DNA of 10,557 nt, from positions 1 to 10,557 of the forward strand of contig CBFGJG010000061.1 in NCBI GenBank assembly GCA_965649055.1. The letters run 5' to 3'. Shown piece after piece: positions 1-10,557 of this stretch; within the stretch, counting starts at the first letter, position 1, and every line of letters starts with the position of its first letter. This DNA is from a candidate division WOR-3 bacterium. GTDB taxonomy: Bacteria > Hydrothermota > UBA3072 > B12-G15. The notes under the pieces were generated by a model, which was not told the origin of the DNA, did no database searches, and saw only the letters and a list, made by a program, of their open reading frames with translations. Both the position numbers and the translations under genes were made by a program.

Positions 1-1
1 A

Positions 2-2251
2 CCCTGTTAAAGAACCGTAATTCTTTACTTTCACAACAAGGTCAAATGTTTCACCAGGATTTATCTTATAATTTTTATTTCCTGAACCTGTTATTGTATC
101 AAATACAGAATATGAAAGGAGGGTTATATAAGGACCTGATGAAGTTATAACTTGTATTGAATCTTCATAGGGTCTAAAATTCTTTGCTGTTATAGTAAGA
201 TAAATTTTTCCAATACTCGTTGTATTTATATTGAAAGAAATTGAACCAGTTCCATCAGTGAAACCAAAACTATATACTTCTTCACCTTTCATAAGGCAGA
301 CAAGTGCATTAGCAAGAGGTGTTGTTCCATCAGACTTTTTTGCAGATATAGAAACAATAGAATTTCCAAGCGGAACAGTCGTTGGAAAACCCGCTATTAT
401 GTTTTGTGGTTCATCAGTCCAGATAGGAAGTTCAGGGTCACCGAATAATGATAATTCATATATACACCATCTTGTCTTAGCATATCTTCCCGTTGAATCA
501 GCATAAGGGACCCATTGGTCTTTTGCTGCATGATGAACCTGTCCAAGTTTATAAAGACCATCATAGAATATCCTTCTATGAAATGTTGTATCAATTCTTT
601 CTGAAGGGCCAGGGACATAATCACCACCATATACTGCACCCCATCCATATCTTGTATTAAAAATAACTGCAATGGCACCTCCACCAATTCTATTAACAAG
701 ATGTTCAGCAAAGCAATCACCAGAAGGTGTTTCATCCCATGCACCTGTAAAACATGCTATGGAATTGAAAATACCTAACTTGTTTCCATTTGTAAGACCA
801 TCAGCGAGTGTAGAAGTAAGATAAGGAGTAGAAGTGCTTAGGTAAATTCCATCTTGATTACCATGACCATTCCATTGACCTAATCCATAACCGGAATTCA
901 ATGAATCGACCATTGCACCTGCATTAAGATTACCAATTCTTTCGTACAATTTCGTATCCCTCCAACCTGCTGGGGTCATATCTGCAATTGAATCCAAAAG
1001 ATAGTCACTCTCTTCATATGTGGTCCACAAGATTGCACCTGGAAGGAGCATTTTCTTGATATAGCCAGATGGTGGGTTTTTTTCATAAGCAAGAACCTTG
1101 TTTACAAAATTTTGAGCTTCTGCAATATTATCTACAGATGCCCTTCCAACATAAACATCTGCATACATATCAACATTATCAGTAAGTTCCCCAAAAACAT
1201 TATTACCATCATAATTCCAGTTTCCATCTAAATCCGCATAATATAAATCACAAGGTATTGTGTCTTCATCATAGTAATATCCAGCATAAGATTTAATATA
1301 CCATGCATCCCTTGCAGGTATTATATTTTCACCTGCTGTTTTATGGTCTGCTGCACCTCCTAATAACACATAGACTGTACCCCATGTATTATGGGCATCT
1401 ATGATAAAATTCCTTATCTTTTCTTGTATATCAACACCAGTATAATTTGAATTTATCCAAGTCCTTGTTACCATCTTCGCAGGAACACCTTTCTTTGTCT
1501 TCCATTGAACGAGTCTGTTGAAACATGTATCTATTGGGGGTTCTGAGATCACAACATAAAGAACGGTATCAGGTGAAAGCAAAGAAGGAGTTAATATTGT
1601 TGGATTACCAACTATTGGAGAAAATGTCTTCACATCGTTTGGGTTTACTACTATTTTATCTATTTCTTCCTCAAATATCCTTTTTTGAAACTCTGATGGA
1701 ATATAATTTGGGTATTTACCTTCTTTATAAATAACTTTATAAGTAATCTTCGATGCAAAATACAATTTCTTTTTTATAGGATTATAACGCAATGGAAAAA
1801 GCTGAACCCCAACCAGGCTAAAACCATTCTTATTCCCATGATGAACAATTTTTATCTTTTCATACGGAAAAACCTGATCATTGTTATACACAGAGGTATT
1901 AGGTATAGGTGGTTCAATATTGAAGATCTTTCCAGGCATTGGTAGGGGGATATCTGGTTGAGACGGAAGAATACTGAATTCACCGGGTAGTTCTACAACC
2001 TCTTCAGATACTATTTCAACACCCACAGGAATAGAGCCAGATGGTATTAAGACATTATCCCTTACATCAGGGAGCCTCGGTAAGCCTACATCAGATATTG
2101 CAGGATAACCTTTTAGTTCTACAACATTATATTCACCAACACTCCGAATTCGCAGATCTTTTTCAGAAAAACTCTTAACCACCACTAGTTCACCAGCACT
2201 TAGATAACAGACAAACAAAACTACAAACAACATAAAAAACCTTTTAAACAT
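2..2251 (-). CDS. Secreted gingipain-like cysteine peptidase, family C25 (signal peptide, propeptide, catalytic domain, Ig-like domains); 3' end beyond the window, at least 750 aa
   Basis: My manual translation gives an uninterrupted frame from ATG at 2251 (GGAGG 4 nt upstream) to the window edge. The N-terminus MFKRFFMLFVVLFVCYLSA-G looks like a signal peptide. Propeptide-like motifs: GLPRLP...VLIP, FPLRYNP. C25 motifs: LVQWKTKKG, IRNFI...WGTVYVLLGG, DLYYADLDG, DVYVGR, WNGHG (His463, codon 863-865), NSIACFTG (Cys500, codon 752-754), CFAEHL...GGAIA, LFGDPELPIW. These are followed by beta-rich domains (ALVCL, LTITAKNFRPY, INPGETFDLVVKVKNYG). Confidence 0.93.
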   Translation of the reverse strand, partial: MFKRFFMLFVVLFVCYLSAGELVVVKSFSEKDLRIRSVGEYNVVELKGYPAISDVGLPRLPDVRDNVLIPSGSIPVGVEIVSEEVVELPGEFSILPSQPDIPLPMPGKIFNIEPPIPNTSVYNNDQVFPYEKIKIVHHGNKNGFSLVGVQLFPLRYNPIKKKLYFASKITYKVIYKEGKYPNYIPSEFQKRIFEEEIDKIVVNPNDVKTFSPIVGNPTILTPSLLSPDTVLYVVISEPPIDTCFNRLVQWKTKKGVPAKMVTRTWINSNYTGVDIQEKIRNFIIDAHNTWGTVYVLLGGAADHKTAGENIIPARDAWYIKSYAGYYYDEDTIPCDLYYADLDGNWNYDGNNVFGELTDNVDMYADVYVGRASVDNIAEAQNFVNKVLAYEKNPPSGYIKKMLLPGAILWTTYEESDYLLDSIADMTPAGWRDTKLYERIGNLNAGAMVDSLNSGYGLGQWNGHGNQDGIYLSTSTPYLTSTLADGLTNGNKLGIFNSIACFTGAWDETPSGDCFAEHLVNRIGGGAIAVIFNTRYGWGAVYGGDYVPGPSERIDTTFHRRIFYDGLYKLGQVHHAAKDQWVPYADSTGRYAKTRWCIYELSLFGDPELPIWTDEPQNIIAGFPTTVPLGNSIVSISAKKSDGTTPLANALVCLMKGEEVYSFGFTDGTGSISFNINTTSIGKIYLTITAKNFRPYEDSIQVITSSGPYITLLSYSVFDTITGSGNKNYKINPGETFDLVVKVKNYGSLTG

Positions 2252-2260: not shown

Positions 2261-2293
2261 CTTTTTTGTTAATACTAAAAAATATTGTTCCCG

Positions 2294-2399: not shown

Positions 2400-2418
2400 T
2401 GTAGCAAATTTTGCTACA
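2400..2418. promoter_or_regulatory. Perfect palindromic operator-like box 2 (TGTAGCAAA-T-TTTGCTACA); alternatively a weak terminator hairpin for the kinase operon
   Basis: Perfect 9-bp inverted arms around one central base, 32 nt past the stop codon at 2451. A related copy lies at 2333-2351. Confidence 0.65.
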
Positions 2419-2450: not shown

Positions 2451-5400
2451 TTATAATATGTCTCTTATTTTATCAATTATTTCAAATATTGATTTTTTAT
2501 TATTTATATAAATTTCTTTGAGGTTTTGGTCCTCAATCTCATGGTATGCTATATCCAGAATCCTTATAGTTTCTTTTAAATGGGAATATGCATTTCTTAT
2601 GAAACCTGATTTTAGATAAGATAATGCTAAATAGTAGTTGCATATATACAGAAATTCAATATGATTGGTTCTCTCTGCAATATCTAATGCTTTAATGAAA
2701 TAAATCCTTGAAATTACTGGTTCATTTTCAAATAAAATCAGACCTTTCAAAAATTCTTTCCCAAACAGATGGATCCATGATTCTGAACTTAACATAGAAA
2801 ACATATTATAATAATATTCCATTTTATCTAATTCACCTATTTTATAAAGTATATTGATACATTCAAAAAATATCTCTTCCTTGGGGACAGTAATTGACTT
2901 TAAATCCTCAGAGTCTTCTATCAATTTAAAAAATTCTAATGTTTTTTCCTTATTTCCCAAATATGCATAAAGTTTAGCTAAACCAATATATGCTTCTGTA
3001 ATAACAGATTTTATTCCTATGTTCCGGGCCTCATTCAAGGCAATTTCTAAATTTTTTCTTGCATTTTCATAATCTCCAATATCTGTAAGCACAAGACCTA
3101 ACAAGATATTTGAGATTGCAATATAATATCTTTCTCCGCATTTCTCTGAAAGTTCAACTGCTTCTTCAAACCATTTTATACTTTTACCAAGATGCCCTGA
3201 TTTGAAATTAACCATTCCTATACTGAAAAGAGAGCCAATAATACCGTGAAGGTCTTTTGTTTCTTTGAAAATCTCAAGTGCTTTTGAAAATACTGAAATT
3301 GAATCTTCAAAATTTCCCATCAACAAATTTAAAAAACCAATATTCTGTAAACCTACACCCATACCTTTTATATCTCCTATCTCTTCTTTTATCTCTAAAG
3401 ATTTATTTTGCAGTTCAAGTGCTTCTCTATATTTTCCCTTCTCTCTTAATACAACCCCTATGTTCCCAAGTGTTAAGGCAACACCCTGAATATCTCTAAT
3501 TTTTCTAAATATCTCGTTCGATTTTTTAAAATAGTCCATTGCATTATCATTATCATCTTTCTCAAGGTAGATCAAACCAATCGCATTCAAAGTAATTCCT
3601 ATTCTCTTTTTGTCATCTTTTGAAATATAATATTTAATTACCTCATTATGATATTTCATTGACTCCTCGTAATTCCCTGACATATAAAAAAGGCTGGCGA
3701 ATGCGGAAAGAATTTTAGTATAGAGTTCTTTATCTTTTTTGTGGGCAAATGATAACATTTTTTTTAGGATATTTTCAGCAGATTTATACTTCCCTAAATG
3801 CTGCTTAATTTTTGCAATATTCAAGTTTGAATATATAATATATTTTTTCTTTTTTATAAATTTTGAGATTTTCAAAGCATGTTCAAAAGCGTTGAAAGAT
3901 TCTTTAACCGAACCTGTAAAAAGTAGTATTTCACCCAATTTTGAATATGTTTCAAAAAGTTTCTCTTTTGAAAATGAATTTTTCAATTTTGAAATTAAAA
4001 TAATTTTTCGATAATAATTTATTGCCTCATTCGATGCAAATATTCTTTCGGCATTCTTTGCAGCCAATCGCATATAATTTATTGCTAAATTATATTTTTT
4101 CCCTTCGAAATAATGATAAGCCAACTGTGAGATTGTTTCTTCTTTTAATGATTTAATACTTTTTATTATTTTTGCTGCTTTTCTGTGCAAATAAATTTTT
4201 TTCTTTGTAGGGAGAGAAAAATATATCTTTTTTCTTATTTCTTCCGATGAAAAACTGTATAATATCTGATCATTTGCCCTTATCTCTTTAATTATACCTT
4301 TTTTAACGAAAAATTTCAAGTTATTATAAATATTATTGGAAAATTTTCTATTCAAAAAAAGAAGTATTTTAGGAGACCAAACGGATGGGAAAATTGAGGC
4401 ATATTTAAGTAGTTCCTTCTCAGATGAATCCAGATTTTTAATACTTTCATCAAAAAATGTATCTATTCCCTTGAATTTAATACCACTTATCAATATATCT
4501 TTGTTGATAGTCCATTTAGCATCTTTAAACCTCAATTTTCTTTTTTCAATCAATTCTTGAATAATTAGCTGAACAAATAGCGGGTTCCCTCCAGATCCAG
4601 AAAACAAAATTGGGCTAAGTTTTTCCGCAATATATTTATCTTTAACAAGGGACATTATAATCAGGTTTACACAATTTTTATCTAATGGATTTAACATAAT
4701 CTTCAAAATATTTTTATCTTCTTTAAAATCTGAGATATCTTCTGTAGATGTAATTATAATTTTGATATTTCTTCTATTTAGACTACTTATCAAATATCTT
4801 AAAAATTCTGTATCTATTGACACCCCTTTATCTACATCATCAATTATTATTAAAAAATCCCCTATAATTTTTCTTGCAAATTCTAAGAAGCGAATAATAT
4901 TTTCAAATAGCTGTAATTTATCATATTCAATTTTTTCCCCAATAACATTGTTAGTTTCAATTTCCGGGAAAAGTGTGTATAAGAAAGGCATAAATGTTTT
5001 AATATCATCAAAATGGTGAGTTTGACAAAGCAAAAAAATTTCTTTCACCAATAGTTTGATGTTTTCTAAAGGCTCCTTTTTTTCGGATTCATATTTTAAT
5101 ATGAACAACTTTATACCTTCTATCTGAGCCCAGATAGAAAACTCGTCTATAAGCCTTGTCTTACCTATTCCTTTGGGACCGATAATGAAAATCTTTTCAA
5201 TTTCATTACTCAAAAAAACTTTCTTTAATGTCTCAAGTTCTTTTTCTCTTCCCACAAATGGAGTATTAATTAAAATATTTCTTAGTTCTTCATATGTTTC
5301 ACAAAGATAACGGGGTTTTACGAAAGTATTTATTTCGTGAATAATTTCATTCGCAAAATTAAATCTATTATTTGGATCTTTTTCAAGAAGCTTTTCAACA

Positions 5401-6131
5401 ATAATCTTAAATTGAAGAGGACAGTCAATATCCTTTAAAAGTTCTATTGGTGGTCTTTCTTTCAAATGCGCTGAAATTATTTCCTTTAAATTTTCTCCTC
5501 TGAAAGGTGGCTCACCAGCTAGCACTTCAAACAACATAACACCAAGAGAGTATAGATCTGCCCTATGATCTACCAGCCCTCCTCTTAGTATTTCTGGGGC
5601 AATATATATAGGGGTGCCATAGATAAATTCGATATTACTTATTTTTCCACTTCTTGCCAGCCCAAAATCCAAAATCTTTACATTTCCATTAGTTATTAAA
5701 ACATTTAATGGTTTTAAGTCCAAGTGTATTATCCCTTTAAAATGAATATATTGTAATGCTTGCAGAAATTGAACAACAATGTCAAAAAATTTTTTCCATT
5801 TATTCTGATCATTTGATAAAACATAATCTCTAAGTGTCTTATAGAAATTCGACCCCTCAATATATTCCATTGTATAATAATATTTGCCATCAAAAAATCC
5901 AAAATCATACACATGACAAAGATTTTTATGATTCATTTGTTTTAACATTTGAAATTCACATTTGAGTTGGAATAAGTCTTCAACTTGAGAGATCTCTTTT
6001 CTGATGATCTTTAGTGCTAATATTTTATTTGTTAAAATATTGATAGATTTAAAAACCTCTCCCATCCCTCCACTTCCTATTTTCTGTATAATTTTATATT
6101 TCCCGTCAATAACTAAATTTTCTACGCTCAT
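2451..6131 (-). CDS. Ser/Thr protein kinase - STAND NTPase (AAA_16-like) - TPR protein, copy A (1226 aa)
   Basis: Kinase motifs: IGSGGMGEV, LALK, HLDLKPLN, LDFG, GTPIYIAPE, DLYSLG. NTPase motifs: FVGREKEL, Walker A GPKGIGKT (5157-5180), Walker B IIIDDVD, GGNPLF (GNP at 4581-4589). Then LAYHY..G and TPR-like repeats (TLNAIGLIY, TLGNIGVVL, GLQNIGFL, SLFSIGMV). No signal peptide or transmembrane segment is evident. Confidence 0.93.
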   Translation of the reverse strand: MSVENLVIDGKYKIIQKIGSGGMGEVFKSINILTNKILALKIIRKEISQVEDLFQLKCEFQMLKQMNHKNLCHVYDFGFFDGKYYYTMEYIEGSNFYKTLRDYVLSNDQNKWKKFFDIVVQFLQALQYIHFKGIIHLDLKPLNVLITNGNVKILDFGLARSGKISNIEFIYGTPIYIAPEILRGGLVDHRADLYSLGVMLFEVLAGEPPFRGENLKEIISAHLKERPPIELLKDIDCPLQFKIIVEKLLEKDPNNRFNFANEIIHEINTFVKPRYLCETYEELRNILINTPFVGREKELETLKKVFLSNEIEKIFIIGPKGIGKTRLIDEFSIWAQIEGIKLFILKYESEKKEPLENIKLLVKEIFLLCQTHHFDDIKTFMPFLYTLFPEIETNNVIGEKIEYDKLQLFENIIRFLEFARKIIGDFLIIIDDVDKGVSIDTEFLRYLISSLNRRNIKIIITSTEDISDFKEDKNILKIMLNPLDKNCVNLIIMSLVKDKYIAEKLSPILFSGSGGNPLFVQLIIQELIEKRKLRFKDAKWTINKDILISGIKFKGIDTFFDESIKNLDSSEKELLKYASIFPSVWSPKILLFLNRKFSNNIYNNLKFFVKKGIIKEIRANDQILYSFSSEEIRKKIYFSLPTKKKIYLHRKAAKIIKSIKSLKEETISQLAYHYFEGKKYNLAINYMRLAAKNAERIFASNEAINYYRKIILISKLKNSFSKEKLFETYSKLGEILLFTGSVKESFNAFEHALKISKFIKKKKYIIYSNLNIAKIKQHLGKYKSAENILKKMLSFAHKKDKELYTKILSAFASLFYMSGNYEESMKYHNEVIKYYISKDDKKRIGITLNAIGLIYLEKDDNDNAMDYFKKSNEIFRKIRDIQGVALTLGNIGVVLREKGKYREALELQNKSLEIKEEIGDIKGMGVGLQNIGFLNLLMGNFEDSISVFSKALEIFKETKDLHGIIGSLFSIGMVNFKSGHLGKSIKWFEEAVELSEKCGERYYIAISNILLGLVLTDIGDYENARKNLEIALNEARNIGIKSVITEAYIGLAKLYAYLGNKEKTLEFFKLIEDSEDLKSITVPKEEIFFECINILYKIGELDKMEYYYNMFSMLSSESWIHLFGKEFLKGLILFENEPVISRIYFIKALDIAERTNHIEFLYICNYYLALSYLKSGFIRNAYSHLKETIRILDIAYHEIEDQNLKEIYINNKKSIFEIIDKIRDIL

Positions 6132-6134
6132 TAT

Positions 6135-9100
6135 CTATTTAAAATTCTCTTCTAATAAATCCTTTAATTTATTAACTATTTCAAATACTAACTTCCTTTT
6201 CGGATTTTTCAAAAATTTGATTTTCAGTCCTTCATCTTCAATCTCGTTACACATTTCTTCAAGGTATATAATCGCCTTCTTACAGCAATCAAAGGCATTT
6301 TTATAATATCTTTTTTCAAGATAATAATTTCCAAGATATGTGTATATTTCAAAAAGTGAATCTTTTAAATTCATCTTTTTTGCAATTAACCTTGCATTTT
6401 CCAAACATTCCTTTTTATCTGTAGTATCTGGGAGTAATGACTTTATCAAATAAGCTTTTACTAAAAAAACATTATTGCTCGTCTTCTCCAAATGTTCAAA
6501 CATTTTATTCAAATTATATATACCCTCATCAATATTTCCTGAATTCAAATAAAGTTCCGAAAGTAATGAATATGCATAAATCTTTAATGAAGTATCATTA
6601 TTTTTTATTGCTGTTTCAAGCCCCTGTCGTAAATAGTTTTCAGCTTTTGAAAAATCCCCTGCATAAAATAAATCAGAACCATATCCGATTAAAACATTAC
6701 TCTCAAATTTTCCCAGTCCAAATTTTTTTATATATTCAAAGCATTCTAAATGTAATTCTTCAGCTTTTTTTATATCCCCTATTTCTCTTAAAATATTTGC
6801 TAAATTATTTTGTGCTATTAAAAACATATGTCTTTCATTTATCTTATTGGATAACTCTACTGATTCTTTAAAATAATTTAATCCCTGTTGATAAGTTTGA
6901 GTTGTAGAATAAACTTCTCCAAGTGCAATGTATGTTGTTAATATCCCTCTTTTTTCTCCGATGCTTTCAAATAGAGTTAATGCCTTCTTTAATGTATCAA
7001 TAGCATCGTTAAACCTACATTGACTTGATAGAATGCCCCCAATATCTCTTAAACAAGCAGCGATTCCCTGTGTATCTCCTACCTCTTCAAAATATTTCAT
7101 AGCAGTTTTATATCCTCTCAATGCTTTTCGAATTAGAAGGTTAGGCACATAGTAAACACTACTTAATGTATGAAGATTCCTGGCAATACTTCTTTTATCC
7201 TTCTGTTTTTTAAATATTCTTAATGATTTTTTCAGGTATATATACGCCTTTTCAGTTTCACCCAAATTATAATAAACCAAGCCTATATTGTGACAAATAC
7301 CTGCATAACGAATTCTATCTTTTATTTTTTTAAAAACTGGGAGAGATTTCGTATAATAATCTAAAGCCTTATTGTTTTCACCCATAGTCCAATATACTGA
7401 ACCAATAAAGCTTAGATTTCTTGCAATCTTTCCATCGTCCTTCAAATTTTCCCAAATCTCTAAAGACATTTTATGAAATTTTATGCTATCTTGAAAATTT
7501 CCCAATCTCCAGGAGACAATCCCAAGATTTTCATAGGCATCAGCAAGTAATTTTTTATCATTTAATGTCTTGGCAACCTCAACAAATTCAGAATAAACAT
7601 CATATGCCTTTCCGTATTCTCCCTCTAGTTCAAATGTAGAACCAAGTTTTAAATAAACTTCTACAGAATCATCAGGTCTAAATAGATCTTGATTATTTTT
7701 ATAAATATCTATGCATTTACGAAAATTTGAAATTGCACGATTTGGTAAATATTTTTTTCTTGCATTCTCAGCAGCTATTTTGAAATAATCAAATGCTTTT
7801 TTAAAATTTTGACCTTTTAAAAAATATTCCGCAACATCTTCAGCATAATTATGTAAATTCTCACAATATACTTTTTCAAATGTTGAACCGAGTTCAAAAT
7901 ATAAATTAACAAGTTCCTTTTCGCTTATGTTTCTAAAAATTAATTCTTTCAATTCTAACTGTGAAATGTAGTAAGATGCAATACCATCTATGATTTCTTC
8001 CAAAATTAGTTTTTTCTCTAATAAGAACGATAGTTCCTTCTTAAGTTCATCCGATTCCATATTCCCAACATATTTTATTATATCAAAGGGTAATTTACCA
8101 TTTGAAATTGCACATATTTTCATTATTTTTAATTGTGGTTCTGATAATTTATTTATTAATTCTTTCAATGAATCATTTAATTCAACAGTAAAATTAATTT
8201 TATCAAAGTCAATATCCCCTATGTCAATTCTACCTTGCTCATAAGATATTATCCCATCCTTCAATAATTTTTTCAATAGCAATTTAATATACATTGGATT
8301 ACCATTTGTTTTAGAATAAACCTTCTCTGAAAGCTCATCTAACTTTTTGCATTCAGGAAATGATTTTGATAAAAAGTATTTTGTTTTTTCAAGTGAAAAA
8401 TTTTCTAATGTAAATGTCGAAGATAAATTTTTTATTTTCAGTCTATTTAAAAAATCAATTATATAACTTGGGCATGACTGAAACTCACTTCTAATTGTAG
8501 CTAAAAATAAAATTTTACTTCCTATCAAATTCTCAATAATATATTGAAGTATTTCTAAAGATTCGGGGTCACACCATTGTAAATTTTCTATTATAAAAAT
8601 AACTTTCTCTCTGCTTTTATAGAATTCTAAAAGAAAATTTAATATATCATCAAAATACTGATTTTTTGGAGGAGTTGCAAATATCCTATTTTTTAAGTAT
8701 CCCTTATTTTTTATTAACGGAAATATTTGATATAGTGAATCAGCAAATCTTTCAATTAAATCTTTTCTTTCATTTTCACCTGAAGCTATAATGTTACCTA
8801 ATAAATGATTTAATAAAGCAAAAGCAGACATTTTAGATAAATTGCAAGAGACCTCAATAAATTCAACCTCTTCCATTTTTAAAAATTTTTTTATTACTCT
8901 TATCAAAGTAGATTTACCAACCCCTTTTTCTCCTTGAATTAAAATAAAATTTGTTCTGTTTATAAATATTTCATTTTTTATTTTTGAAATATCTTCAAAT
9001 TGGCAATAATTTTCTGAGACTATATCTTCATAATACAATTCCCCTAAATTAAATTCTGTGGATTCTCCTATAAATTGTTTCAATTCGTGCATGACTTCAT

Positions 9101-9863
9101 ATGCATTTAGATATCTGTCGGATGGCATTCTTTGCAAAAGCTTTAAAATTATAGATCTTAATTCTTTTGGTATTTTTTGTTTTTCTTCTTCAGTGAACTC
9201 CACTCTTTTTTCAATCTTTTCTTTTATTATCTCTTCAACAGTTTTATTTGAAAATGGATTTCTTCCTGTAAAAATTTCAAAGATTATTACTCCTAAAGAG
9301 TATAAGTCTGTTCTAATATCAACATTTTCATTATTAATAATTTCAGGTGAAATATATTGAGGTGTTCCTTTTATCTTTTTTTCAATTGTTCTTCTTTTGA
9401 AAGATGAGAGTCCTAAGTCCATTATTTTCAATGCTTCATTATTTACGAGTATGTTTTCAGGTTTTATATCAAAATGGATGATGCCCTGAGAATGGATATA
9501 TGCGAGTCCTCTTAACACTTTAACAATAAGTTGAATTTTTTGTTCGAAATCTAAATTCTTTGAAGCTTTTATAATATCCAATCCCTCAAAAAATTCCATA
9601 ATAAACATATAATGTTCCTTAAATTTAAAAAATTCAAATGCCCTACAGAAAAATGGGTTCTCAAGTGAAGACATCATAAGATACTCTTTTTTAAAATCCT
9701 TAATTAGTTCAGAATCATTTTTGTTCTTCAAAAGTTTTAGAGCCAAAATAATATTCTTTTCAATATCCTTAATTTTATAAACTTCTCCCATTTCTCCTTC
9801 TCCGTATTTATCTAATATCCTATACCTATTAAAGATTATTTCATTATTATTTATCACATTCAT
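6135..9863 (-). CDS. Ser/Thr protein kinase - STAND NTPase (AAA_16-like) - TPR protein, copy B (1242 aa)
   Basis: Kinase motifs: YGEGEMGEV, LALK, HFDIKPEN, MDLG, GTPQYISPE, DLYSLG. NTPase motifs: Walker A GEKGVGKS (8910-8933), Walker B-like IFIIENLQWCD, NGNPMY (GNP at 8295-8303). TPR-like repeats: AYENLGIV, NLSFIGSVY, ICHNIGLVY, CLRDIGGI, TYIALGEVY, AQNNLANI. An AAGGA RBS-like sequence lies upstream. Confidence 0.93.
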   Translation of the reverse strand: MNVINNNEIIFNRYRILDKYGEGEMGEVYKIKDIEKNIILALKLLKNKNDSELIKDFKKEYLMMSSLENPFFCRAFEFFKFKEHYMFIMEFFEGLDIIKASKNLDFEQKIQLIVKVLRGLAYIHSQGIIHFDIKPENILVNNEALKIMDLGLSSFKRRTIEKKIKGTPQYISPEIINNENVDIRTDLYSLGVIIFEIFTGRNPFSNKTVEEIIKEKIEKRVEFTEEEKQKIPKELRSIILKLLQRMPSDRYLNAYEVMHELKQFIGESTEFNLGELYYEDIVSENYCQFEDISKIKNEIFINRTNFILIQGEKGVGKSTLIRVIKKFLKMEEVEFIEVSCNLSKMSAFALLNHLLGNIIASGENERKDLIERFADSLYQIFPLIKNKGYLKNRIFATPPKNQYFDDILNFLLEFYKSREKVIFIIENLQWCDPESLEILQYIIENLIGSKILFLATIRSEFQSCPSYIIDFLNRLKIKNLSSTFTLENFSLEKTKYFLSKSFPECKKLDELSEKVYSKTNGNPMYIKLLLKKLLKDGIISYEQGRIDIGDIDFDKINFTVELNDSLKELINKLSEPQLKIMKICAISNGKLPFDIIKYVGNMESDELKKELSFLLEKKLILEEIIDGIASYYISQLELKELIFRNISEKELVNLYFELGSTFEKVYCENLHNYAEDVAEYFLKGQNFKKAFDYFKIAAENARKKYLPNRAISNFRKCIDIYKNNQDLFRPDDSVEVYLKLGSTFELEGEYGKAYDVYSEFVEVAKTLNDKKLLADAYENLGIVSWRLGNFQDSIKFHKMSLEIWENLKDDGKIARNLSFIGSVYWTMGENNKALDYYTKSLPVFKKIKDRIRYAGICHNIGLVYYNLGETEKAYIYLKKSLRIFKKQKDKRSIARNLHTLSSVYYVPNLLIRKALRGYKTAMKYFEEVGDTQGIAACLRDIGGILSSQCRFNDAIDTLKKALTLFESIGEKRGILTTYIALGEVYSTTQTYQQGLNYFKESVELSNKINERHMFLIAQNNLANILREIGDIKKAEELHLECFEYIKKFGLGKFESNVLIGYGSDLFYAGDFSKAENYLRQGLETAIKNNDTSLKIYAYSLLSELYLNSGNIDEGIYNLNKMFEHLEKTSNNVFLVKAYLIKSLLPDTTDKKECLENARLIAKKMNLKDSLFEIYTYLGNYYLEKRYYKNAFDCCKKAIIYLEEMCNEIEDEGLKIKFLKNPKRKLVFEIVNKLKDLLEENFK

Positions 9864-9882
9864 AAAATATTATTCCTTCTTA

Positions 9883-10443
9883 TTACATATATCTGCTTAT
9901 ATGTTCTGCGAATGCTCTAAAAACTTTAAGGTCTTTATCTGAAAACTTAAAATCAGGGAAGGAACTATCCACATACAATACTCCAATTATCTTATTATTC
10001 TTTCTGATTGGAGAACAAATTATAGTTTGGAGTTTTAGATCTCTAATACTCTTGGTCGGCGTATACTTTTCAGTATTTAATGCATTTCCAATAAATATTT
10101 CCTTATCTCCTTCGATTGCCTCTTTAGCTACTGAAATACTTATCTTAAAATCCTCCTGTTTTAAATCATTCCCTCTATTATCTTTTCCTGCAACAAATTC
10201 TAACATCTTATTTTCATCTATTCTCATAATAAAACCTCTATCGGTTTTTGTAAAATCTACAATAATCGTTAGCAATGTCTTTGCGAGACTTAGTGAATCT
10301 TTGATTTTAGAAACCCTCTTATCTGTTTCTTCTAATAAAGAATGTTGTTCTTGTTCATAGTTAAATTTTTGCTCTCTTGATAGAAAATTCTTTGCTTCAT
10401 TTAATTTTTTAAAATAGTCCTTCTCTTTACCGTTCGTTTCCAT
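9883..10443 (-). CDS. Stand-alone GAF-domain protein (186 aa)
   Basis: GAF pattern: LLTIIVDFTKTDRGFIM...ISISVAKEAIE...SIRDLKLQTIICSPI...IIGVLYVDS...FSDKDLKVFRAFA. Strong RBS (AAGGAGGaaatATG). It ends in a tandem TAA TAA. Confidence 0.9.
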   Translation of the reverse strand: METNGKEKDYFKKLNEAKNFLSREQKFNYEQEQHSLLEETDKRVSKIKDSLSLAKTLLTIIVDFTKTDRGFIMRIDENKMLEFVAGKDNRGNDLKQEDFKISISVAKEAIEGDKEIFIGNALNTEKYTPTKSIRDLKLQTIICSPIRKNNKIIGVLYVDSSFPDFKFSDKDLKVFRAFAEHISRYM

Positions 10444-10447
10444 ATTT

Positions 10448-10454
10448 CCTCCTT
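10448..10454 (-). promoter_or_regulatory. Shine-Dalgarno site of the GAF gene
   Basis: The minus strand reads AAGGAGG 4 nt upstream of the ATG at 10443. Confidence 0.85.
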
Positions 10455-10475
10455 TTTATTTAAAATAATTCTTTT

Positions 10476-10506
10476 AAAAAAAAGTCAAGTGATTTTTTAT
10501 TGACTT
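10476..10506 (-). other. Inverted repeat AAGTCAA-N11-TTGACTT followed by a T-run on the minus strand (weak terminator, back-to-back -35 elements, or operator)
   Basis: Arms at 10482-10488 and 10500-10506, with an A8 run at 10476-10483. Each arm contains TTGACT pointing outward. Confidence 0.4.
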
Positions 10507-10557
10507 CTGGAAAAGATCATGCACATGGTGGTACAGTTAAGATAGTGAAGATAGGGG

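What the first reader, a model, noticed from the sequence alone, without database searches (positions are those of the whole stretch)
2451..10443. Candidate undescribed system: stand-alone GAF + paired kinase-STAND-TPR (NLR-like) operon
Seen: three co-oriented genes with gaps of only 19 and 3 nt. The two large ones share the layout kinase / STAND NTPase / TPR, and none of the three has an HTH, sigma54-AAA+, cyclase or histidine-kinase output. Known: effector-STAND-repeat is the layout of NLRs, bacterial Avs antiviral STANDs and MalT/PknK-type signalling proteins, in which ligand binding to the repeats drives oligomerisation and effector activation. Inference: a cytoplasmic sensing module whose only output is Ser/Thr phosphorylation, possibly a hetero-oligomeric sensor/helper pair modulated by the GAF protein. 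It could act in signalling or in phage defence.
Basis: partly seen in the sequence, partly recalled or inferred. Interest (0 to 1): 0.72.

Follow-up and report, generated by a model that had tools for sequence, protein, structure and literature searches.

The report
Output-less GAF subunit caps STAND kinase
In an uncultured bacterium, a small sensor-type (GAF) protein appears to plug into the tail of a large neighbouring signalling kinase; it looks like the remnant of a two-part gene switch that has lost its gene-activating half, and the second kinase next door is not a conserved partner, so this is probably signalling rather than a paired immune receptor.

Summary
The three genes are real and have the stated domains. 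The three-gene 'NLR pair' is not conserved. The one other locus with the orthologous GAF holds GAF, kinase B and the C25 peptidase, but no kinase A. No defence context was found. The conserved unit is GAF + B. In the phylum, output-less kinase-STAND-TPR genes lie beside a separate GAF-(GGDEF)-sigma54 activator gene in 12 loci (10 genomes; 4 of 4 complete unselected cases), and fused versions exist. The window's GAF keeps that partner's N-terminal helix and GAF domain, then stops before any output. A complex model docks this helix into B's last helices (ipSAE 0.76, best control 0.27; the mark was reached by 116 of 157 solved and 2 of 215 mismatched pairs). B's STAND core is degenerate. Paired enhancer-like palindromes and a sigma54-like promoter persist in front of the downstream peptidase gene. 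Best reading: a split STAND-kinase/sigma54 signalling module whose activator was cut down to a docking cap, probably a regulatory or decoy subunit. The scan noted the fused family before on other DNA; its look-ups returned no note on the split form.

The parts
9883..10443 (-). Stand-alone GAF protein, 186 aa: N-terminal helix, then a GAF domain that ends before the output-linking helix of its relatives
   Evidence: 61% identical orthologue P0002
10327..10416 (-). Predicted docking helix of the GAF protein (residues 10-39)
   Evidence: interface of the complex model; a motif fitted after the fact is in 3 of 3 stand-alone GAFs and 8 of 10 GAF-GGDEF-sigma54 proteins
6135..9863 (-). Kinase B, 1242 aa: Hanks kinase with catalytic residues intact (non-RD, the family norm), degenerate STAND core (Walker B second acid is Asn; N-terminal GR motif and WHD His lost), TPR, conserved C-terminal helices
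   Evidence: orthologue in L043 43.5% identical
6144..6419 (-). C-terminal groove of B (residues 1149-1240) predicted to hold the GAF helix
2451..6131 (-). Kinase A, 1226 aa: same layout as B, GR motif and Walker A/B intact, sensor-I Arg and WHD His lost; absent from the orthologous locus; in frame behind B's TAG stop
10448..10488 (-). Ribosome-binding site and -35-like TTGAC hexamer in front of the GAF gene; a TTGAC lies at a similar distance in L043
   Evidence: sequence; function inferred
2400..2418 (.). Perfect palindrome TGTAGCA-N5-TGCTACA, candidate enhancer site of a sigma54 activator; the only perfect copy in the genome; conserved in L043
2333..2351 (.). Second copy of the palindrome (1 mismatch), 67 nt from the first (66 nt in L043)
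2275..2291 (-). Candidate lineage-specific sigma54 promoter (GGAAC at -24, TT instead of GC at -12) about 40 nt before the C25 gene; same motif before three pilin-like genes
   Evidence: function inferred
2..2251 (-). Secreted C25 (gingipain-type) peptidase, likely the sigma54-driven target gene; runs on into contig C51

Best explanation
The locus is a cut-down version of a signalling module common in this phylum (WOR-3, by the label of the closest GAF homologue). The module has three parts: a kinase-STAND-TPR sensor, a GAF-(GGDEF)-sigma54 activator, and a nearby sigma54-driven gene for a secreted protein. Sensor and activator are either fused or encoded as two adjacent genes. In the two-gene form, an N-terminal amphipathic helix of the GAF subunit plugs into a groove formed by the last helices of the kinase protein. 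In this lineage the activator gene was cut down to the docking helix plus GAF domain and has been kept under selection. It therefore still caps kinase B but cannot activate transcription itself. Most likely role: a regulatory subunit that occupies the groove, either holding B's kinase in check until a ligand binds the GAF pocket, or keeping a full-length GAF-sigma54 activator encoded elsewhere from docking. B has lost much of its STAND switch and probably works as a kinase-TPR scaffold rather than an oligomerising receptor. A is an old paralogue gained here or lost in the relative; it is translationally coupled to B and may use the same cap. Shown: domains, synteny, split/fused pattern, truncation point, selection on the GAF. 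Modelled: the B-GAF contact. Inferred: cap or decoy function, action in trans on the C25 promoter, any role of A.
For: GAF-B-C25 order conserved in L043 without A; the A-C25 spacer aligns with the B-C25 spacer there. The GAF is more conserved than B (61% against 44%; pN 0.23 with saturated pS), and a third, partial orthologue ends at the same point (P0124). Output-less kinase-STAND-TPR genes lie next to a GAF-sigma54 gene in 12 loci from 10 genomes. In the test on genes found by the kinase-STAND profile alone, 4 of 4 complete genes with the C-terminal motif had that neighbour. GAF-first order as in the window occurs in L036 and L077. A fused kinase-STAND-TPR-GAF-sigma54 protein (L095) keeps the C-terminal motif directly before its GAF and is sister to three split kinases (support 0.94). 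Complex model of B 843-1242 with the GAF: score 0.76 against best control 0.27, runs agree in at least 95% of contacts, partner pLDDT at least 77; the mark was reached by 116 of 157 solved and 2 of 215 mismatched pairs, and these counts hold only roughly because my own alignments were used. The interface falls where the fusion logic predicted before the job was sent. Canonical sigma54 promoters follow the activator gene in 5 of 13 related regions scanned. B's STAND parts are its least conserved (34% and 30%, against 51% kinase and 60% first TPR block).
Against: The GAF+B pair is seen in only two loci; the neighbours of P0124 and P0127 could not be fetched (one search found no close locus). The GAF tree does not place the stand-alone GAFs inside the GAF-GGDEF-sigma54 clade: they form their own clade (0.90) with poorly supported deeper nodes, so descent from such an activator rests on synteny and the shared helix. 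The helix motif was fitted after seeing the sequences (background 67 of 1369 ORFs), and the split partner from L037 lacks it; those from L088-L092 have equally short N-termini. Interface residues are only a little better conserved between the B orthologues than other nearby residues (16 of 32 against 37%). No activator that could act in trans was identified: the 2020-aa activator next to L043 has no orthologue in this assembly (best 28-29%; 93.8% complete, contig breaks at a repeat just upstream). A complex score is model confidence, not measured binding.
Confidence: 0.55

Rival explanations
1. Adaptor or input subunit: the GAF docks on B (and perhaps A) and passes a signal on, either as the ligand sensor that switches the kinase on, or by GAF-GAF dimerisation with a sigma54 activator encoded elsewhere (for example the 488-aa GAF-sigma54-HTH protein on contig C2), which then drives the C25 promoter.
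For: Same docking evidence. The GAF core is 66% identical between orthologues, more than the helix (47%), so the pocket or dimer face is under selection. The palindrome pair and promoter motif are kept in both genomes. The genome holds RpoN and seven sigma54-type activators.
Against: The helix that carries the signal out of the GAF in all full-length relatives is missing. No ligand or partner was identified; the nearest solved GAFs are at most about 20% identical.
Confidence: 0.25
2. One reading: A and B form a hetero-oligomeric NLR-like sensor/helper pair modulated by the GAF, signalling by phosphorylation.
For: Tight spacing and in-frame coupling of A to B. Complementary motif losses: A keeps GR and Walker B, B keeps sensor-I Arg. 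All ten hydrophobic groove positions are hydrophobic in A as well.
Against: A is absent from the orthologous locus, has no orthologue and is not B's sister. B's orthologue has lost the sensor-I Arg too. Interface identity of A to B is 7 of 32, below the 32% of neighbouring residues. Clusters of several unrelated STAND genes are common in these genomes (L036, L043, L085). An A:B complex was not modelled.
Confidence: 0.1
3. Anti-phage receptor (Avs-like) with a kinase effector.
For: Effector-STAND-TPR layout; A is patchy, as defence genes often are (own knowledge). Defence and non-defence STAND clades are intermingled (PMC12803255, section 4 read).
Against: PADLOC hits shown for A and B (best 25 of 33 and 25 of 37) cover only the kinase domain or TPRs, with no Avs model among them. 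4 of 77 neighbours hit PADLOC, all generic domains. Neighbours are secreted proteins and housekeeping genes. Position next to the C25 cluster is stable. Base composition is like other STAND genes of the genome.
Confidence: 0.06
4. The GAF is a non-functional relic of a decaying activator gene.
For: It lacks any output; the family splits and fuses often.
Against: Same length and same end in orthologues with saturated synonymous sites, 61-64% identity, strong ribosome-binding site.
Confidence: 0.04

Closest known systems
[quoted passage not shown]
   Same: NBD-HD-WHD-arm-TPR core; PH0952 and MalT are hits 1 and 6 of the fold search; control by a separately encoded binding protein (MalY, MalK, Aes for MalT).
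   Different: N-terminal Hanks kinase instead of a DNA-binding domain; the partner is a GAF protein predicted to bind the C-terminal end of the TPR, not the NBD; B's nucleotide switch looks degenerate.
Kinase-STAND multidomain signalling proteins: cyanobacterial HstK-type kinase-GAF-histidine kinases, the C. thermocellum kinase-TPR-GGDEF protein and the M. tuberculosis kinase with a MalT-like domain (PMC1262709, passages read); 'SWACOS' clade of Leipe 2004 (name seen in PMC8195603, definition recalled)
   Same: Kinase first, then STAND and TPR, then GAF and a variable output. Relatives with histidine kinase, PP2C, GGDEF or sigma54 outputs are among A's top hits.
   Different: Here the GAF is a separate protein and carries no output.
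Fused kinase-STAND-TPR-GAF-sigma54 activators (uncharacterised; earlier scan notes e1-6936686, e1-725271)
   Same: Same domains in the same order; one such protein is in this genome (C1, 1499 aa); adjacent sigma54 promoter.
   Different: Split into two genes with a predicted docking helix, and in this lineage the activator part is gone.
Paired plant NLRs and bacterial Avs receptors (pairs recalled; Avs from PMC12803255, section 4 and passages)
   Same: Effector-STAND-repeat layout; two STAND genes side by side.
   Different: The pair is not conserved, there is no defence neighbourhood, and the family's output is transcription.

Membership tests
STAND NTPases | NBD-HD fused to a WHD, then arm and repeat sensor | tested here: met
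   Model of A 286-727 (pLDDT 83.7) matches PH0952, Apaf-1, MalT; the profile hits Apaf-1 over its positions 225-384. Definition from PMC6468293.
STAND NTPases | Intact nucleotide-switch motifs (N-terminal GR, Walker A, Walker B with two acids, sensor-I Arg, GxP, WHD His) | tested here: inconclusive
   A keeps GR, Walker A/B and GxP, lacks sensor-I Arg (kept in 100 of 114 homologues) and WHD His (76 of 114). B keeps Walker A, GxP and sensor-I Arg, lacks the GR Arg (112 of 114), has Asn as second Walker B residue (14 of 114) and lacks the His (5 hits without Walker A were dropped). Motif roles are recalled.
STAND NTPases | Inducer-triggered ADP/ATP exchange and oligomerisation | not testable with these tools
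   needs biochemistry
Hanks-type Ser/Thr kinases | Gly loop, catalytic Lys, helix-C Glu, HxD, DxG | tested here: met
   Pkinase E about 1e-52 for both; residues present in alignment A3; non-RD loop as in most relatives
SWACOS clade of STAND | STAND fused to a Ser/Thr kinase or adenylyl cyclase (recalled) | tested here: met
   kinase-AAA_16-TPR architecture; no reference SWACOS sequences were placed in a tree
SWACOS clade of STAND | Monophyly with the reference members | not tested
   Leipe 2004 not read; no reference set fetched
Paired NLRs (sensor/helper) | Conserved linkage of the two STAND genes | tested here: not met
   A absent from L043; no A orthologue
Paired NLRs (sensor/helper) | Physical or genetic dependence of the two proteins | not tested
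   the single complex job went to B + GAF
Avs / defence-associated STAND | Match to an Avs model or location among defence genes | tested here: not met
Avs / defence-associated STAND | Activation by a phage protein and protection | not testable with these tools
   needs phage assays
sigma54 enhancer-binding proteins | AAA+ domain with GAFTGA loop and Fis-type HTH | tested here: not met
   absent from all three window proteins; present in the partner genes of related loci

The most novel reading that the evidence does not exclude
A widespread, undescribed two-subunit signalling design in which a STAND kinase and an exchangeable GAF-output subunit join through a helix-in-groove dock at the end of the TPR. 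This lineage has turned the output subunit into a dedicated output-less cap that acts as an anti-activator or a switchable adaptor, and may have recruited a second kinase to the same cap.
Probability: 0.35. Interest if true: 0.7.

Novelty: new variant of a known kind. Interest (0 to 1): 0.5.

Why it matters
Kinase-STAND-TPR proteins with GAF-linked outputs are very common in uncultured bacteria (1572 hits at E at most 1e-30 among 8000 scored candidates), and I found no paper on the sigma54-linked ones. The split forms give a small, testable interface for how the STAND/TPR sensor is coupled to its output. The output-less GAF is a natural deletion mutant that isolates that interface. It also warns against reading every effector-STAND-repeat gene pair as an immune receptor.

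Tried and rejected
Readthrough of B's TAG into A: in frame, but no PylS over the cut-off and no CUA tRNA among the tRNAs called; translational coupling is the simpler reading. Recent tandem duplication of B: rejected (26% identity, not sisters; both are long branches, so placement is weak). Other stand-alone GAF loci: genome scans found none. In 272 genomes of the phylum, 129 had GAF matches, but among the listed ones (21 were not listed) the only other frames under 300 aa were two at contig ends; the 208-aa GAF of L040 lies before rpoN and belongs to another clade. No phage match for the GAF. Sigma70 scan: 73 sites against 61.6 expected, uninformative; no terminator found. Expression: no RNA holder listed. 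Linking the contig's right end to another contig through the insertion's target duplication failed. ESM Atlas gave only generic GAF clusters. Sequence search of solved structures found no member of this STAND subfamily. Literature searches with no paper on this module: 0 papers; general papers only; a search for the MalT Walker B mutant returned nothing and that paper is not held, so the effect of B's Asn is recalled and not relied on. Supplements of PMC12803255 (STAND clade tables) were not opened and may say whether this clade is defence-associated.
Full report
Observation. The window is a whole contig (C61) of a 2.08-Mb, 93.8% complete genome. On the minus strand lie a 186-aa GAF gene, kinase B (1242 aa), kinase A (1226 aa) and a C25 peptidase, with gaps of 19, 3 and 199 nt. 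Pfam confirms GAF and kinase/AAA_16/TPR with no output domain. A and B are 26% identical end to end. A model of A's NTPase region matches PH0952, Apaf-1 and MalT best, so it is a STAND. The closest GAF homologue is labelled WOR-3, which I take as the phylum. Short contigs from a hot-spring run match parts of A, B and C25 exactly.

Is the three-gene unit conserved? No. One protein search found a single close GAF homologue, P0002 at 61%. Its locus L043 reads GAF, a 43.5% orthologue of B, then a 78% orthologue of the C25 gene; A is missing, and the window's A-C25 spacer aligns with L043's B-C25 spacer to within 10 nt of A's stop. A was therefore gained in one lineage or lost in the other. A has no orthologue: its best full-length hits are 28-29% identical (only the 8000 candidates sharing most words were scored). 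In a kinase+STAND tree of 53 sequences B groups with its orthologue and A lies apart, both on long branches. In L043 the genes upstream of the GAF are a divergent GGDEF-STAND-TPR gene and a 2020-aa kinase-STAND-TPR-GGDEF-GAF-sigma54 protein; I found no orthologue of the latter in this assembly, whose contig ends in a repeat 65 nt upstream of the GAF start.

What the family looks like. GAF matches in related genomes almost all lie in proteins of about 500 aa (mostly GAF-sigma54-HTH or FHA-GAF in those I annotated), about 680 aa (GAF-GGDEF-sigma54-HTH) or 1500-1800 aa (kinase-STAND-TPR-GAF-sigma54-HTH). Several of the best-scoring ones are GAF-GGDEF-sigma54 genes lying directly beside an output-less kinase-STAND-TPR gene, in either order. 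Because those loci were found through the GAF, I tested the pattern on genes found with the kinase-STAND profile alone (only 2 candidates per genome were scored, so counts are lower bounds). Nine new matches covered the kinase in a frame under 1350 aa. I fetched seven and left two that run off their contigs. Four are complete and end in the conserved C-terminal motif; all four are followed directly by a GAF-sigma54-HTH gene. One is cut by the contig end. Two lack the motif and look like broken fusions. In all, 12 loci from 10 genomes show the split arrangement (L036, L037, L071-L073, L077-L079, L088-L090, L092; L078 is cut before its kinase; L085 has an N gap and is not counted). Split and fused forms are interleaved in the tree, and the fused L095 keeps the C-terminal motif immediately before its GAF.

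The stand-alone GAF. A search of 1.84 billion representatives added a partial orthologue (P0124) and a more distant stand-alone protein (P0127). All end at the last GAF helix, where full-length relatives continue into their output. They form a clade (0.90), but its position is not resolved. The GAF is better conserved than B, with saturated synonymous sites (rough Nei-Gojobori counts), so it is maintained. Its N-terminus is a long helix. A five-position motif fitted to it is found in 3 of 3 stand-alone and 8 of 10 GAF-GGDEF-sigma54 proteins, in 0 of 15 other N-terminal GAF proteins and in 67 of 1369 genome ORFs.

Docking. The fusion pattern predicted that the GAF's N-terminus meets B's last helices. 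The model of B 843-1242 with the GAF scored 0.76 (runs 0.77, 0.76, 0.75) against a best control of 0.27; runs agree in at least 95% of contacts and the partner's pLDDT is at least 77. The mark was reached by 116 of 157 solved complexes and 2 of 215 mismatched pairs; these counts hold only roughly with my alignments. GAF residues 10-39 lie in a groove of B 1149-1240. This is the case of halves of a split gene, which can pass by likeness to solved structures; the nearest solved GAFs are at most about 20% identical and none of the titles shown names such a complex. The result supports binding but does not show it. A keeps hydrophobic residues at all ten core groove positions, but only 7 of 32 interface residues are identical to B's, so binding to A is open.

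State of the switches. Both kinases keep their catalytic residues. B has lost the N-terminal GR motif and the WHD His and has Asn in place of the second Walker B acid, as does its orthologue; A has lost the sensor-I Arg and the His. Between orthologues, B's NBD and HD/WHD/arm are 34% and 30% identical, against 51% for the kinase and 60% for the first TPR block. B looks more like a kinase-TPR scaffold than a tightly switched NLR.

Downstream promoter. The 199 nt before the C25 gene hold two palindromes 67 nt apart, one being the only perfect copy in the genome; both are kept in L043. About 40 nt before the start is a GGAAC...TT motif. A loose form occurs 16 times in 541 upstream regions, against 4 on the reverse strand and 3.25 in shuffles, including three genes with pilin-type leaders (leader motif recalled), whereas the canonical sigma54 pattern occurs 0 times. 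The pattern was chosen after seeing the C25 site. Related split loci have canonical sigma54 promoters after the activator in 5 of 13 regions, and L036 has an intermediate form. The genome encodes RpoN and seven sigma54-type activators. I read C25 as a separate sigma54 unit whose activator now acts from elsewhere; this is inference.

Defence. PADLOC hits shown for A and B are kinase-domain or TPR matches. Of 77 neighbouring proteins from 14 related loci (those over 600 aa cut to their first 600), 4 hit PADLOC, through a radical-SAM, kinase, phospholipase and HNH domain; many of the others are secreted or housekeeping proteins (annotated a subset).

Literature. Read as passages: PMC6468293, PMC10427625, PMC1262709, PMC8195603, bioRxiv 10.1101/2022.12.17.520857; PMC12803255 as passages and section 4. 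Other papers were seen as search listings only. Leipe 2004 and paired plant NLRs are recalled. Searches for this module found nothing specific. Earlier scan notes describe the fused family on other genomes and a helix-docked split sensor kinase of a different family; these are leads, not support.

Verdict. A real locus, but not a conserved NLR pair. It is a variant of a common, unstudied STAND-kinase/sigma54 module in which the output subunit survives only as a docking GAF. Binding of GAF to B about 0.75; cap or decoy role 0.55 overall; adaptor 0.25; A:B pair 0.10; defence 0.06. Interest 0.5.

Noticed in passing
window 10509-10557 and 34 other places in the genome: Left end of an insertion-sequence/MITE family with terminal inverted repeats and about 16-nt target duplications. 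In 31 of 35 copies a GTCAA (TTGAC on the other strand, -35-like) ends 17-24 nt before the element, nearly always 20-21 nt, against 0.6% of random positions. Here it sits just upstream of the GAF promoter and breaks the assembly. The duplication length fits the ISTde1 subgroup of IS1202, but no whole transposase is assembled, so the family is not settled. The scan has noted promoter-targeting elements of other families in other genomes.
   Followed up: partly
window 2275-2291; G000 C3:56363, C13:21381, C13:21910, C10:48537, C12:31810, C48:595, C65:7764: Candidate drifted sigma54 promoter consensus (GGAAC at -24, TT at -12) in this lineage, with no canonical site in 541 upstream regions.
   Followed up: partly
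window 6132-6137: B and A are in frame, separated by one TAG and an ATA codon; no pyrrolysine system found.
   Followed up: yes
window 1-2251 and contig C51: The C25 gene overlaps the end of C51 by 19 nt and heads an array of secreted proteins that includes further C25-type genes, syntenic with L043; nine ORFs of the genome match the C25 orthologue.
   Followed up: partly
L043:485-9850: A 2020-aa kinase-STAND-TPR-GGDEF-GAF-sigma54-HTH protein converging on a GGDEF-STAND-TPR gene, directly upstream of the orthologous GAF.
   Followed up: partly
L040:2145-4437: Another short GAF-only gene (208 aa, different clade) directly before rpoN.
   Followed up: no
L036:3300-3660 and 7800-8620 (minus strand): A duplicated stretch with paired palindromes and a GGAAT...TTTGT promoter-like site follows both the kinase gene and the STAND-sigma54 gene.
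   Followed up: no
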